The notes below the pieces were generated by a model. The model did not search any database. It was given only the letters and a program-made list of their open reading frames with translations, and was not told the DNA's origin. A stretch of 63,601 nucleotides of DNA, the filler included, from Octopus bimaculoides (Eukaryota): assembly GCF_001194135.2 (NCBI RefSeq). It is 5 parts of 4 records of this genome, joined end to end, with 100 filler letters (N's around TTAATTAATTAA, not from the genome) between each part and the next. Parts side by side here need not be neighbours in the genome. Positions count along the whole stretch, not along the records: positions 1 to 17,651 come from NC_068984.1; positions 17,752 to 37,333 come from NC_069007.1; positions 37,434 to 44,726 come from NC_068996.1; positions 44,827 to 59,312 come from NC_068981.1; 1 more part is not named here. The stretch is one strand, 5' to 3'. The translations under genes were made by a program, and so were the position numbers. The stretch's first letter is position 1. Each line of letters begins with the position of its first letter. Of the stretch, positions 11,812 through 58,868 are shown piece by piece.

Positions 11812-11847
11812 CTTTCTGTCGAAGAGCGAAGGCTCGAAACATAAAAG
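11812..11847 (+). ncRNA. Minimal type I hammerhead-like motif (U6 family), mutated copy
   Basis: CTTT-CTGTCGA-A-GAGC[GAAG]GCTC-GAAAC-ATA-AAAG; cleavage triplet is ATA instead of GTC/GTA, consistent with CpG decay. Confidence 0.6.
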
Positions 11848-11964
11848 ACTTTGCCATTCTTTCCGAACGTTAAACTAATACACCTGCTTGTTGTTCTTAC
11901 AACTGTCTGCGTCTTTTGTCTTCTGTAAAATTGAACTATGTGTGTGTGTGTGTNNNNNNNNNNG

Positions 11965-13535
11965 GACTCTCGACAGGAAGAGGTCCAGCCTTGATTTAAA
12001 AACGCCTACATCTTCTTTGTGCAGGTTCCTCTTTGGGAGAATATTAAAAAAAAGCAGTGGGCCCCCGAAACCCAGGCTGTTGCAGTAACTGGTCCTGAAG
12101 CGCGATAGCATTGCGGCGATCTTTGGCACTGTGCAGTGTCAACCCGTTCTGGCATTGGTGTAGCTTTCAATGCCAAAATTTGGCACAATTCCTTCAAGGA
12201 TCTTCCAAATGTATATTACAGCATACCTCGCCCGCCTTCGCTCCAGGGAGTAGAGTCTTAACCGTTTCAGCCTTTCCCAGTAGCTGAGCTGTTGCAAAGA
12301 GACGATCTTCTTTGTGAAGCTTCGCTGGATTGCTTCAAGGTCCGCTGTTAATTTTACACTGTTGGGTGACCATAGCTGGGAGCAGTATTCCAGGCGACTG
12401 AGGACGAATGTCCTCCAGAGGACCATCATGGTTTCCTTATCTCTGGTTCTGAATGCTCTCAGGATCCATCCAGCAAGTCGTCTGCAGTTTTTCTCCTTCC
12501 TAGTAATGTGCACTTGGAAAGAGGTATCATCACGCATGTCGATACCCAGGTCCCACACTGATTTAGGCTCTGGGATTGTAATACCCTGTGGATCAGTGTA
12601 CCCTGTAAATTTCATATTCAGCTTTGACGCCGGTAGCGCAGGGCTTGGAATTTTTCAGCATAAAACGGCATACTATTATTCTCAGCCCATCTGTAAATTG
12701 AGTCCAATTCCTGCTGCAGATGTGCAACATCACTGGGGTTCTGTATTTTCTGCGAGACTTTCATATCGTCTTCGTAGCTAGCAAGAGTAGCTATCCGAGC
12801 ACTTGAGGGTTTGTCTAAGGGGGCCACTATGAAAAGCAGTGGTCTCAAAACAGTGCCCTGTGGAACACCGCTCACTATTTGTGTTTTCATTGAGGTGGCT
12901 CCATTGGCCACAACTGCCTGACTTGTATTATTCAGAAAGTCATGTAACCACTCTCCAAGTTTTCCAGTTATGCCAAGATCACGCAGTTTGTGACATATCA
13001 TACCATGATCCACTTTATCAAAGGCTTTTGCATAATCAAGGTATATTACGTCCACATTTGAGTTGTTGAGTAACTGCCTCAACACCCAGTCTTAATGTTG
13101 TAAGAGCTGGGTCAGGCAGCTCCTTCCTGGTTGAAAGACGTGTTGGGTATCACTCAGCAAGTTATTTTCTTCAAGGAATGCGATTAGTTTCCCTCTGACT
13201 ATCTGTTCCATGACTTTGCTGATGAATTAATTCAGAGAGATAGACCTATAGATTTTGGCATCTGCTCTGCTTCCCCCTTAAGGGAGTTTTAGCATATTAT
13301 TTTCTTCTTCAGCTTCCTTGGCAGCCTGCCATTTGAAGGAAAGCTCTGGAAGAGAATTTGGAGGGGTTTTGCCAGGGCACGCTTACACGATTTGAGGAGG
13401 ATTGCTGGGAAACCATCAGGACCAACAGTTGAGTTTGCTTCCAACTCATCTATGGCTAGTAGTATATCTTCTTCGCTAATGTCGATGTATTCCATCGTAA
13501 CTGCCTCGCTGGTTATAGGTGAGGCGGCATACACT
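11965..13535 (-). mobile_element. CR1-type LINE, decayed RT and 3' end
   Basis: GPDGFPAILLKSCK, YRSISL, VDVIYLDYAKAFDKVDHG, SGVPQGTVLRPLLF, SYEDDMKV, LSRLEYCSQLWSP, SYWERLKRLRLYSLERRR, FKSRLDLFL. Confidence 0.93.
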
Positions 13536-13604
13536 TATTTATGTAATTACCTATTCTTATTTATGTTATTACCCATTCTTAATAGATACATACATACATA
13601 CATG

Positions 13605-13659
<55 letters not shown>

Positions 13660-13733
13660 NNNNNNNNNNNNNNNNNNNNNNNNNNNNNNNNNNNNNNNNN
13701 NNNNNNNNNNNNNNNNNNNNNNNNNNNNNNNNN

Positions 13734-13783
<50 letters not shown>

Positions 13784-55640: not shown

Positions 55641-55750
55641 TTACCGGAATAGAACATGCAAAAATGATAGATATCTAAGACTTACGGATGATAGACATCC
55701 AAGAATTACGGAAAACAAGAAAACACCATGACACACTTGAAACTTTATAT

Positions 55751-57610
55751 TATTTTGATGCCATCTTAAAGGGGAAGAAAAATAAACTGTTACAAGGAAT
55801 ACTTCATAAAGGATTATAGATGGGATACAAATTGAAGAAGCAAGTTTTTACCTTAGTTTACTGATACCATTAAATCAAAATCAAAATATATAGATATATA
55901 AAGATTAGAAAGGAGATTTATATATATAAATAATTAAGGACATACTGTATAATTTAATACATATCAATATAAGGTTGCAGCATATAACTAATTTTATGAA
56001 AAAAATATAAATTTATAAATTGTCACGAAATTTTTATGCTTTGCAAACTTTAATAATATAATGTGATAAAATAAAAAAATATAGCCAAATATAAAAATAA
56101 AATATAATATAAGAAAATATAAACAAATATAAAAAAATGTACATATACAAAGGCATGAAAATATAAAACAAAATATTTAATATAGATTAAGCTAATAGTA
56201 CCTCATTTTCTACGAAAATCTGGGAACTTAAAGATAATAATATAGATTTCAGTCTTAATTCTGATTTAGTACGTAGAGCTCAACCGTACACAAATAACCG
56301 ATATGCATGTAAACTATGTTGTATGGAATTGTATGACATTTTTAAATATAGAGATAAGAACAACTGAATTGATAATAGATTAGATGTTGTACTGTCATGT
56401 GTTCGTAAGATCACCTGTATCTTTAAATGCATTAGGAGGGGATACTTTTTTACTATATCATAATTTTTTGTGACTAAAAAAGAAGAAAATTCTCTTTAAG
56501 TCCTTTGATCTCTCAACTCTTAGTAATCATATATACCTACCCAATCTCAGTGGTGAATCTATTTTATCACAGTCAATATAAATATACTATTTTTACCTAA
56601 CGAGTGCTGAATTTTCAAATCTCCCCTAGTTATAAAATATACCCTCTCTGACCTGATACTATCATACCTCAATCTTTGCTCTTCATAGTAGTTTAAACAT
56701 TTTAAATAATCTATTTCTGATGATAATTGTAATTCAATTTTATTTTTATTATACCCCAGTGTACTTGTGCCTTATATTAGTAATCAATATTCTGGTTATA
56801 GCTACTTTTATATATAAATTTCATTATAATCATTTCTTCATTTTCATTTTATATTACCTTATTTCCTTTTTTATATGGCTTACTTTTAGAAAAACAATTT
56901 TAAAGAAAGATTTTTTTTCAATATAACTCATTTTTATAAATTCGTATTATAGCTTTTAGTATAATTCTTCTCCGAGATATTTTCTTATATTTCCTCGTAT
57001 ATTTTATAAATCCTATATCTTATATCCTTATAACTTAACATTTTATATACCCTTCATATATTTTTCATAATGTTTGTATGTTTTATTAATACTTTGACAG
57101 TTTTAAATTATTTTCGTATATTCCACCGTGTACTGTGAACCTAGAATTATAAAATTATTATATTTTTTACACATTGTAATTTTTTTATATATATTAAAGA
57201 TTTTATGATTTATATTTTCATATCTTTGTGTATATATCCTTTGTATTTTTTATATTTTCTTATATTAAATTTTATTTTTATAATTCTTGTGTTTTATTTC
57301 CTTATATCTTTAATGCTTTATGGCAAAAAATATTTGGTGGTAATTTATAGTTTTTAATTTTTTTTCATAAAATTCGTTATATGAAGCAAATTTATATTAT
57401 CATATGTTAAATTATACGTTATGCCCTTATTTATTTATATATAAATTTTACTTCTTGCTTTATATATATATACATATACATTTTGCTTTAATGGTATCAA
57501 TAAACTAAGGTAAAAACTTACTCCTTCAATCTATATCTCGTCCATAATCCTTTAAGAGGTATTCCTTGTAGCAGTTCATTTTTCTTCCCCTTTAAGATGA
57601 CAATCAAAAT
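55751..57610. repeat. Long diverged inverted repeat, arms ~430 bp (55751-56180 and 57190-57610), ~1-kb spacer
   Basis: CATCTTAAAGGGGAAGAAAAAT.AACTG.TACAAGGAATAC...AAGTTTTTACCTTAGTTTA.TGATACCATTAAA matches on opposite strands and alignment continues through the AT-rich arm. Confidence 0.85.
56190..56390 (+). mobile_element. Penelope-like endonuclease C-terminal remnant
   Basis: STSFSTKIWELKDNNIDFSLNSDLVRRAQPYTNNRYACKLCCMELYDI. Confidence 0.75.
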
Positions 57611-58333
57611 AAGCTTTATCAGCCATCCCCATTTTCCCTTTCTTCTATTACCACTCCCCCATCAGACATCCTTTACCAACCCATTACCTACTCTTTTGGG
57701 GCTGATATATCCGGATGTAAAGTTCCATTATCTCAGATAGTAAAACGTTCTATCATGATACTAATTAATTTATAACTCCCTAAACATTTCATTTTCGATG
57801 ATTCGAAGACTACATTTTCCCCATTGTCTTCGATGTGTTGATAACAGGGTCACTACTGTCATTCATCCCTCCACACCACTCTAGCCTATGATTATTCTTG
57901 TCTTGTCTGTTGCTGTATTGTCCTTTTTTCATACTACCAAAAACGTTTAGCAGCAGAATCATTGTAAATATTTTCTCTCAATTGATATGAATATGTTTAA
58001 ATATATAACTTGCCCTTTATACTTGGAGTCTATGCAGTCATCTGATGAGAACGGTTTTCTTTGTAACGATCTAATGCTTTCATTGATCAATTAAAGGAGT
58101 TGCTCGAAAGGGCCGCATTGAATTGACACTTACACATCATTATTCCTCATATTTTACTCGCATATGATGGAATCTGCACTTCGGAAGTATATGGAAAGTA
58201 TCTTTATATAAAGTACATGTCTGAACAAAAAAGCGCAGTTTTTTTCTCTAAGTTGGATCGTGGCAACTGCATACACTGCATGAATATCGGGCGGAAAAAA
58301 ACCTATATAGCGTTTGATACTAACCTAATATAG

Positions 58334-58725
58334 TGGAGACGTGATGGTCCAGTGGTTAAGTCAGCGGACACGCGGTCGTAGGATCGCGGTTTCGATTCCC
58401 AGAACGGACGTTGTGAGTGTTCATTGAGCAAAAACACCTAAAAGCTCCACGAGGCTGCAGCAGGGGTGGGGTGGCGAACCCTGCTGTACTATTTCACCAC
58501 AACTTTCTCTCACTCTTTCTTCCTGTTTCTGTTGTACTTGTATTTCAAAGGGCCAGCCTTGACACACTCTGTGTCATGCTGAAATTTCCCGAGAACTACG
58601 TTAAGGGTACATGTGTCTGTGGAGTACTAAGCCACTTCCACGTTAATTTCACTAGTAGGCTCTTCCATTGACCGGATCAACTGGGACAGATGGAATTCGT
58701 AACCGACAGAATTCCTCAACGACGA
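58334..58725 (+). mobile_element. tRNA-derived SINE family C, full length
   Basis: Pol III A box TGGTCCAGTGG (58345-58355), B box GGTTTCGATTCC (58388-58399); body matches the minus copy at 60347-60728; a decayed 3' half lies at ~31180-31340 (-). Confidence 0.9.
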
Positions 58726-58826
58726 CAGAGCTAATATTGCTCTACATTTTAAAGATGAGAAATTCTGCCAATCTTTTAGATTATTTACATTGGACGGATA
58801 TATATCCTCGTCTTGTTTGTTATTAT

Positions 58827-58868
58827 CACAACGTTTCGGCTGATTGACTCTCCAGCCTTCATCAGGTG
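58827..58868 (-). ncRNA. Minimal type I hammerhead motif, canonical CUGAUGA core
   Basis: Minus strand CAC-CTGATGA-A-GGCTG[GAGAGTCAAT]CAGCC-GAA-ACGT-T-GTG: 5-bp stem II, palindromic ACGT, GUU triplet. Confidence 0.8.

What the first reader, a model, noticed from the sequence alone, without database searches (positions are those of the whole stretch)
11812..58868. Several unrelated minimal hammerhead-ribozyme folds showing three different 3:8 tertiary pairs in one window
Seen: seven motifs, from at least five sequence families, share the order stem I - core - stem II - GAA - stem III - NUH-type triplet - stem I'; two copies (11816, 33373) are decayed. Cores are CUGAUGA (49003; 58865 minus), CUGUUGA (34547, 11816), UUGAGAA (14226 minus) and GUGAACA (51665 minus). 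Positions 3 and 8 read C:G, U:A and G:C, always complementary. Established: C3-G8 is a tertiary Watson-Crick pair in the active hammerhead, and Penelope-like elements carry minimal type I hammerheads with palindromic stem III that cleave as dimers. Inference: this genome hosts a diversified set of ribozyme-bearing solo pLTR or retrozyme-like repeats whose cores evolved by compensatory change. The class is known; the breadth of core variants here may not be described.
Basis: partly seen in the sequence, partly recalled or inferred. Interest (0 to 1): 0.88.

Follow-up and report, generated by a model that had tools for sequence, protein, structure and literature searches.

The report
Hammerhead repeats with swapped core pair
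This repeat-rich animal DNA holds seven remnants of small, likely self-cutting "hammerhead" RNAs of a known kind carried by Penelope-type jumping genes; the unusual part is one very abundant repeat family in which two normally fixed, paired core letters have swapped places, a form I found in print only as a laboratory mutant, and cutting is untested.

Summary
The motifs are real. A descriptor leaving positions 3 and 8 free finds 4 in the window against 0.10 per shuffle, and three decayed ones are present. [quoted passage not shown]

The three-pair claim holds unevenly. G3:C8 (51665) is the family state of a high-copy repeat: 4398 and 4282 contigs from two DNA runs align, majority letters lengthen stems I and II, and no alternative letter is listed at 3 or 8. 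U3:A8 (14226) rests on one old copy with a 1-bp stem II, and that pair is already published. One decayed copy aligns as C3:A8, and 11816 reads CUGUCGA.

I did not find natural G3:C8 in print (five searches; the key 2017 paper was not held). Engineered swaps partly rescue cleavage. RNA reads show no cleavage ends. This scan has noted G3:C8, A6U and U3:A8 families before on other DNA. Verdict: new variant of a known kind.

The parts
51622..51672 (-). Minimal type I hammerhead with G3:C8 core: core 51665-51659, extra G 51658, stem II 51657-54/51642-39, G12 51638, palindromic stem III 51635-30, N17 51629. Decayed copy of a high-copy family.
   Evidence: Family-majority letters give a 5-bp stem II, a 7-bp stem I and U17; no variant row at positions 3 or 8.
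51496..51628 (-). 3' tail of the G3:C8 element, ending in a (TA)n tract 91 nt past N17. [quoted passage not shown]
34542..34578 (+). Minimal hammerhead, C3:G8 with A6U (CUGUUGA), 5-bp stem I, 4-bp stem II, GUC site; best copy of a three-copy family.
11812..11847 (+). Decayed member of the A6U family (core CUGUCGA, stem III palindrome broken).
33373..33410 (-). Strongly decayed member of the A6U family (aligned core CUCUGAA, so C3:A8; G12 lost).
49000..49045 (+). Minimal hammerhead, canonical CUGAUGA core, 7-bp stem II, 8-nt palindromic stem III, GUA site; (TA)n 70 nt downstream.
   Evidence: family not examined in reads.
58827..58868 (-). Minimal hammerhead, canonical CUGAUGA core, 5-bp stem II, GUU site.
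   Evidence: family not examined in reads.
14192..14230 (-). Decayed hammerhead-like motif with U3:A8 reading (UUGAGAA), 4-bp stem I, 1-bp stem II, palindromic stem III; no extra base after A9, so it has a canonical, retrozyme-like layout.
   Evidence: near single-copy in reads.
14056..14620 (.). Old fold-back element holding the 14226 motif: a partial tandem with a 301-nt offset on the minus strand plus an inverted arm (14447-14588) whose homology starts at the predicted cleavage triplet.
   Evidence: (tandem score 50 against a maximum of 31.5 in 200 shuffles).
7700..9200 (-). Decayed PLE ORF remnant (RT thumb to GIY-YIG); no intact hammerhead found at its end; not linked to any motif.
   Evidence: Atlas feature hits 0.96 to eukaryotic GIY-YIG (PF01541, 11-27% of members) and HTH_animal (PF26215) clusters for 7789-8409; translation. 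Pfam gave no hit.

Best explanation
The motifs are remnants of type I hammerhead ribozymes, likely carried in the terminal repeats of Penelope-like retroelements and in short non-coding repeats derived from them, and one high-copy family carries a swapped G3:C8 core pair across its copies. Inferred mechanism: a tandem or read-through transcript brings two motifs together, and their palindromic stems III pair with each other to give the dimeric active fold. Cleavage after N17 would release a unit RNA, and a PLE reverse transcriptase-endonuclease would paste it, often as a 5'-truncated or inverted stub, next to (TA)n. In the founder of the 51665 family both C3G and G8C were fixed while every other core base and both stems were kept, which likely reflects selection to keep the tertiary 3:8 pair and so slow but real cleavage. 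The copies in this window are single and decayed and probably do not cut. Shown: sequence, folds on paper, family-majority letters, copy abundance, insertion layout. Inferred: PLE mobilisation, dimer cleavage, selection.
For: 4 descriptor hits against 0.10 by chance. G10.1-C11.1 is present in 7 of 7 motifs and the extra base after A9 in 6 of 7. A perfect stem III palindrome is present in 5 of 7; the other two carry a CpG-type G>A change. These are the PLE min-HHR marks of PMC4209133. G3:C8 family: 4398 and 4282 contigs align. Majority letters at 51653 (91%) and 51643 (97%) turn a U-U mismatch into C-G, 51625 (97%) extends stem I to 7 bp, and 51626 (42%) keeps a G-U pair. None of the 40 best-supported variant rows lies at 51659-51674, while depth stays level there. 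N17 is U in 99.8%, which avoids the G3-C17 mispair implied by PMC3884650. The engineered swap partly restores a PLE hammerhead (PMC11167929) and was the only rescuing double mutant of the CUGA region in PMC9901934. PLE footprints: (TA)n or (TG)n lies 70-96 nt past N17 in 3 of 5 families, against a background of 6.8% (P about 0.003). Opposite-strand joints occur in the G3:C8 family, and the 14226 element has an inverted arm plus a partial tandem. A PLE ORF remnant lies in the window.
Against: No place where many RNA molecules begin or end in 1014 and 854 reads; both read directions are about equal and about half run on into unrelated sequence, as expected for passenger transcription. No motif adjoins a PLE ORF, and three protein searches plus one mis-framed search found no relatives. 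The G3:C8 stem III is weak (self-duplex -0.2 kcal/mol), and no window copy adopts the full hammerhead dimer as its lowest-energy fold. In the one PLE tested, cleavage was not needed for insertion in vitro. 69 weaker variant rows were hidden, and G3 lies 10 nt from the end of the stretch laid. U17 is common in ordinary PLE hammerheads, so it is weak support. [quoted passage not shown]
Confidence: 0.7

Rival explanations
1. The hammerhead-shaped folds are real PLE-derived sequence, but the variant-core families (G3:C8, A6U) no longer cleave. The fold is kept as a structural signal for the PLE protein or is simply a founder state carried along, and losing cleavage may even help copying.
For: Cleavage was dispensable for insertion in vitro and no cleavage-site read ends were seen for an Anolis PLE. 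No read-end pile-up here. Naiad PLEs lack canonical hammerheads yet reach high copy number (PMC8557442). A6 changes lower activity (PMC3088659 section 8). One founder fixes a state in thousands of copies, so copy number is not independent evidence.
Against: A purely structural or neutral fold gives no reason for two complementary transversions at exactly the tertiary pair while U4, G5, A6, A9, G12-A14 and A15.1-U16.1 are all kept.
Confidence: 0.22
2. For 14226 only: the U3:A8 reading is an accident, from two transitions in a decayed C3:G8 copy or from a motif that never was a hammerhead. The window would then show two 3:8 pair types, not three.
For: 1-bp stem II, a competing hairpin over the core, and a positive energy for stems I+II alone. 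It is not found by either descriptor. It is near single-copy, with no RNA reads in two runs. The arms of its element are only 71-80% identical.
Against: It sits in a roughly 300-nt tandem-plus-inversion element whose inverted arm starts at the cleavage triplet. One relative's loose end continues in register as a stem II strand, GAAAC, a palindrome and GUC (read by hand). Four gap-free relative segments span the core, and a rough likelihood ratio favours shared U3:A8 by 3 to 111 depending on the assumed divergence (biased, since local alignments favour close segments). U3:A8 occurs naturally.
Confidence: 0.35
3. All motifs are chance matches to a short consensus in AT-rich repeat DNA.
For: The motif is short; the looser descriptor gives about 1 hit per shuffled window; Rfam lists no hammerhead among the rows shown.
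Against: 4 strict hits against 0.10, maximum 2 in 200 shuffles; family-majority letters improve the stems; three related copies keep the layout.
Confidence: 0.03

Closest known systems
Minimal type I hammerheads (min-HHR) in pLTRs of metazoan Penelope-like elements (Cervera and de la Pena 2014, PMC4209133; read: parts 1-2 of 4 of the text and parts 1-2 of 3 of the supplement PDF)
   Same: Type I layout, 3-5 bp stem I, extra base between 9 and 10.1, G10.1-C11.1, palindromic stem III, many sequence families per genome, mostly solo copies; U3-A8 variant (about 1,300 hits in Schistosoma mansoni).
   Different: Of the 56 representatives in Fig. S3, 53 are C3:G8, 2 U3:A8 and 1 U3:G8; none is G3:C8 and all keep A6. 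Their descriptors could not have found G3:C8 or A6U. No link to a PLE ORF is shown here.
Metazoan non-LTR retrozymes (Cervera and de la Pena 2020, PMC7229834, passages; Li, Clavereau and Pollet 2026, bioRxiv 10.64898/2026.07.22.740005, part 1 of 5)
   Same: The 14226 element has a roughly 300-nt unit in partial tandem and a canonical-type layout without the extra base.
   Different: Only about 1.3 units with one motif, decayed, U3:A8; no RNA reads, no circles shown. The other four families are minimal motifs in solo stubs.
Engineered C3G/G8C hammerheads (Frangieh et al. 2024, PMC11167929; Roberts et al. 2023, PMC9901934; review PMC8495972; passages only)
   Same: The same swapped tertiary pair, with partial rescue of cleavage, including in a PLE hammerhead.
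   Different: Those are laboratory mutants; here the swap is the natural state of a repeat family with thousands of aligned contigs.
Natural core variants of Perreault et al. 2011 (PMC3088659; section 8 read in full)
   Same: Natural U3:A8 covariation; a natural change at A6 (A6C, under 0.1 per min); stem II as short as 1 bp in one case.
   Different: That section names neither G3:C8 nor A6U; its Fig. 5 was not visible to me.

Membership tests
PLE min-HHR (PMC4209133) | Core CUGANGA ... GAAA ... UH | tested here: met
   Exact in 2 of 7 (49003, 58865). Variant in 51665 (G3:C8), 34547 and 11816 (A6U) and 14226 (U3:A8). Broken in 33405.
PLE min-HHR (PMC4209133) | Unpaired base between A9 and 10.1, and a G10.1-C11.1 pair | tested here: met
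   Extra base in 6 of 7 (absent at 14226); G10.1-C11.1 in 7 of 7.
PLE min-HHR (PMC4209133) | Short palindromic stem III | tested here: met
   Perfect palindrome in 5 of 7; broken by one G>A in 11816 and 33405.
PLE min-HHR (PMC4209133) | Lies in a pLTR flanking an RT + GIY-YIG ORF in at least some copies | tested here: inconclusive
   No ORF next to 49003 or 58865. PLE remnants in the window carry no descriptor hit. No genome held. Protein searches empty.
PLE min-HHR (PMC4209133) | Self-cleavage as a dimer | not testable with these tools
   No read-end pile-up in standard RNA-seq; such libraries are a poor test.
PLE-type insertion (PMC8557442, passages) | Partial tandem and/or inverted 5'-truncated copy; bias to microsatellites | tested here: met
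   14226 element; opposite-strand joints in the G3:C8 family; microsatellite within 100 nt in 3 of 5 families, P about 0.003.
Non-LTR retrozyme | Tandem units of a few hundred nt, each with a type I hammerhead | tested here: inconclusive
   A 301-nt offset repeat at 14226 with only one motif; no tandem unit for the other six within 1.5 kb.
Non-LTR retrozyme | Expressed as circular RNA | tested here: inconclusive
   0 reads at 14130-14300 in two RNA runs, about 6% of each read; no back-joint pattern singled out for the G3:C8 family.
Hammerhead ribozyme, 3:8 tertiary pair | Positions 3 and 8 complementary as the family state | tested here: met
   Met for the G3:C8 family (per-position letters, not linked per molecule). 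Inconclusive for 14226. Not tested in reads for the other three families.

The most novel reading that the evidence does not exclude
A natural G3:C8 hammerhead, not yet described, spread to thousands of copies as a working dimer-cleaving ribozyme. It sits alongside families with A6U and U3:A8 cores, so Penelope-dependent repeats in this lineage explore slowed catalytic cores that standard CUGANGA searches cannot see, and animal hammerhead censuses miss whole families.
Probability: 0.4. Interest if true: 0.65.

Novelty: new variant of a known kind. Interest (0 to 1): 0.5.

Why it matters
If the G3:C8 family cleaves, it is a natural, high-copy counterpart of the laboratory swap that established the C3-G8 tertiary pair. 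It would show that evolution crossed a two-step valley (each single change kills activity) in a mobile element. It also gives a direct test of the open question of whether PLE hammerheads need to cut: compare cleavage rate with copy success across C3:G8, G3:C8, A6U and U3:A8 families in one genome. Practically, descriptors fixed on CUGANGA undercount animal hammerheads. The class itself, its dimer mechanism and U3:A8 are known.

Tried and rejected
No whole genome is held for the window, so no genome-wide family count or covariance model was possible.

Rfam showed only microsatellite-driven miRNA hits among the 150 rows shown of 201.

PLE protein relatives, sought in order to fetch pLTR flanks: three word-index searches scored 0 of 1103, 0 of 145 and 0 of 223 candidates. 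The full HMMER job ran on the wrong reading frame and found nothing, so it is no test. Pfam recognised no PLE domain in 20 plus 6 translations. The PDB gave only chance hits.

A family pattern in metagenome contigs gave 5 loci, none with stem II; rejected as chance.

The 3-fold higher DNA depth 3' of the G3:C8 cleavage site could suggest copies starting at the cut. I did not use it, because three mismatches in the window copy at 51625-51629 clip reads there and the loose ends continue as hammerhead sequence.

A possible eighth motif at 11447-11461 shares 15 nt with 49003 but has no core; not counted.

Lunse et al. 2017, Martick and Scott 2006 and Przybilski and Hammann 2007 were not held; I saw only their citations.
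Full report
Setting. The window is AT-rich (34% GC), gapped (4161 N) and full of microsatellites and decayed retroelements. It looks like animal repeat DNA. No whole genome is held. Earlier notes of this scan call the genome octopus; I did not test that label.

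Observation. All seven places exist. A descriptor that leaves positions 3, 6, 7 and 8 free, but demands stems I and II, GAA, a palindromic stem III and H17, finds exactly four motifs in 63.6 kb on both strands: 34547+, 49003+, 58865- and 51665-. The mean in 200 block-wise dinucleotide shuffles is 0.10 and the maximum 2. A looser version finds the same four and no motif with a non-complementary 3:8 pair, with about one hit per shuffle. The other three are decayed. 11816 reads CUGUCGA, not CUGUUGA. The copy at 33373-33410 lies on the minus strand and aligns as C3:A8 with G5 and G12 lost. 14226 has a single stem II pair and a competing hairpin over its core. 11816, 33405 and 34547 are one family (74-77% identity), so five families is right. 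'Always complementary' holds for six of seven, and only two families depart from C:G.

G3:C8 family (51665). Laying two DNA runs from different studies on 51540-51674 at 80% likeness gave 4398 and 4282 contigs. Summed depth over the core is about 10,000 times that of a single contig; the tool warns this is not a copy number, so I say only thousands or more. The window copy is decayed, and the majority letters repair it. 51653 (91%) and 51643 (97%) turn a U-U mismatch into a fifth stem II pair, 51625 (97%) extends stem I to 7 bp, 51626 (42%) swaps U-A for U-G, and N17 is U in 99.8%. None of the 40 best-supported variant rows lies at 51659-51674, although rows with about 1% DNA share are listed and depth stays level (534k, 527k and 502k in X1). 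G3 and C8 are therefore the family state. Limits: 69 weaker rows were hidden, G3 is 10 nt from the end of the stretch (a row at the same distance from the other end was listed), and letters are not linked per molecule. CpG sites in stem II vary at 5-13%, as in ageing copies. Joints to the opposite strand point to inverted stubs. RNA: 1014 and 854 reads (about 6% of each run was read), equal in both directions, about half running on into unrelated sequence, with no begin or end pile-up. This is passenger transcription and gives no sign of cleavage.

U3:A8 (14226). Only 9 and 10 contigs align: one source-like contig and 3-4 gap-free relatives over the core per run. There were no reads in two RNA runs. 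The motif lies in an old fold-back element. An inverted arm (14447-14588, 71%) starts its homology at the predicted cleavage triplet, and a partial tandem gives a 301-nt unit; with cheaper gaps the arm's start is ambiguous. One relative's loose end, read by hand on the minus strand, continues in register as a stem II strand, GAAAC, a palindrome and GUC. So this is probably a decayed retrozyme-type hammerhead. Whether U3:A8 is ancestral is open; a rough likelihood ratio of 3-111 favours it, and I put it near 65%.

A6U family. All three copies keep U at position 6 in the alignment, two unambiguously. It was not examined in reads, because both lay calls were used. 49003 and 58865 are ordinary minimal hammerheads, and their families were not examined either.

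Link to PLEs. The motifs carry the marks listed by Cervera and de la Pena: an extra base after A9, G10.1-C11.1 and a palindromic stem III. In 3 of 5 families (5 of 7 copies) a (TA)n or (TG)n tract starts 70-96 nt past N17, against 6.8% of 14,714 background positions. Inverted and tandem stubs and microsatellite bias are PLE habits. A decayed GIY-YIG/RT-thumb ORF lies at about 7700-9200. A second remnant at about 53300-55800 is assigned from recalled motifs only. Neither carries a descriptor hit, and no helper element was identified.

Mechanism. Most likely, and inferred, two motifs in one transcript pair their stems III and cut after N17, and PLE protein copies the RNA into the genome. The window copies are solo and decayed. 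None folds into the full hammerhead dimer as its lowest-energy state, and the G3:C8 palindrome is weak (-0.2 kcal/mol). Function at the family's origin is argued from two complementary transversions with the rest of the core intact. It is also argued from mutagenesis: the swap partly rescues a PLE hammerhead, was the only rescuing double mutant in the CUGA region, and works better without C17 ('data not shown' in that paper). Against this, cleavage was dispensable for PLE insertion in vitro, and A6 changes are expected to be slow.

What is known. PLE minimal hammerheads, several families per genome, and U3:A8 are published (PMC4209133: text parts 1-2 of 4, supplement parts 1-2 of 3; PMC3088659: passages and section 8). 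Among 56 published representatives none is G3:C8 or A6U, though their descriptors excluded these. Searches for natural G3:C8 or for cephalopod hammerhead variants returned only engineered cases and a count of 235 Rfam hammerhead loci in giant squid (passage). Lunse et al. 2017, the largest survey of these motifs, was not held, so novelty is conditional on it. Other papers seen as passages only: PMC11167929, PMC8557442, PMC9901934, PMC3884650, PMC8495972, PMC7229834, PMC6765202, PMC10085705. Of bioRxiv 10.64898/2026.07.22.740005 I read part 1 of 5 and not its supplements. This scan's own unchecked notes report G3:C8, A6U and U3:A8 families on other DNA; sequence look-ups found no look-alike window. 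These notes are not counted as evidence.

Verdict. Real, and mostly an ordinary sample of PLE-type hammerhead debris. The solid unusual item is a family-wide natural G3:C8 core, with A6U as a second lead and U3:A8 as a known variant, weakly supported here. New variant of a known kind; interest 0.5.

Noticed in passing
window 51540-51674: RNA reads of the G3:C8 family show 25-26 A>G and 21-26 T>C sites against 1 and 1 in DNA contigs. This looks like heavy A-to-I editing of double-stranded repeat RNA; RNA and DNA are from different samples.
   Followed up: no
window 34550, 11819, 33402: A6U core change shared by 3 of 3 copies of one family; not among 56 published representatives.
   Followed up: partly
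window 11447-11461 (+): 15 nt identical to the GAA, stem III and stem I' of the 49003 motif, with a 4-bp hairpin upstream but no core; possible half-motif remnant.
   Followed up: partly
window 53300-55800 (-): Second decayed PLE-like ORF with an N-terminal conserved block, RT motifs and an internal deletion; assigned from recalled motifs, with no database hit.
   Followed up: partly
window 12139-13091 (-): Decayed non-LTR retrotransposon RT fragment, Pfam RVT_1 E 1e-12.
   Followed up: no
window 50-388 (-): ORF fragment with C2H2 zinc fingers, next to an assembly gap; possibly the end of a retrotransposon ORF.
   Followed up: no
window 17202-17633 (+) and 59150-59320 (-): Fragments resembling the C-terminal restriction-like endonuclease end of site-specific non-LTR elements (recalled motif; no Pfam hit for the first; translations).
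   Followed up: no
window 48678-49091 (-): A 137-codon stop-free frame runs antisense through the 49003 hammerhead; no Pfam hit.
   Followed up: no
window 21590-21793, 33077-33277, 18327-18481, 20638-20852, 32242-32409, 33565-33768: An abundant SINE-like family of about 200 nt at 74-80% identity, one copy directly 3' of the microsatellite that ends the 33405 element.
   Followed up: no
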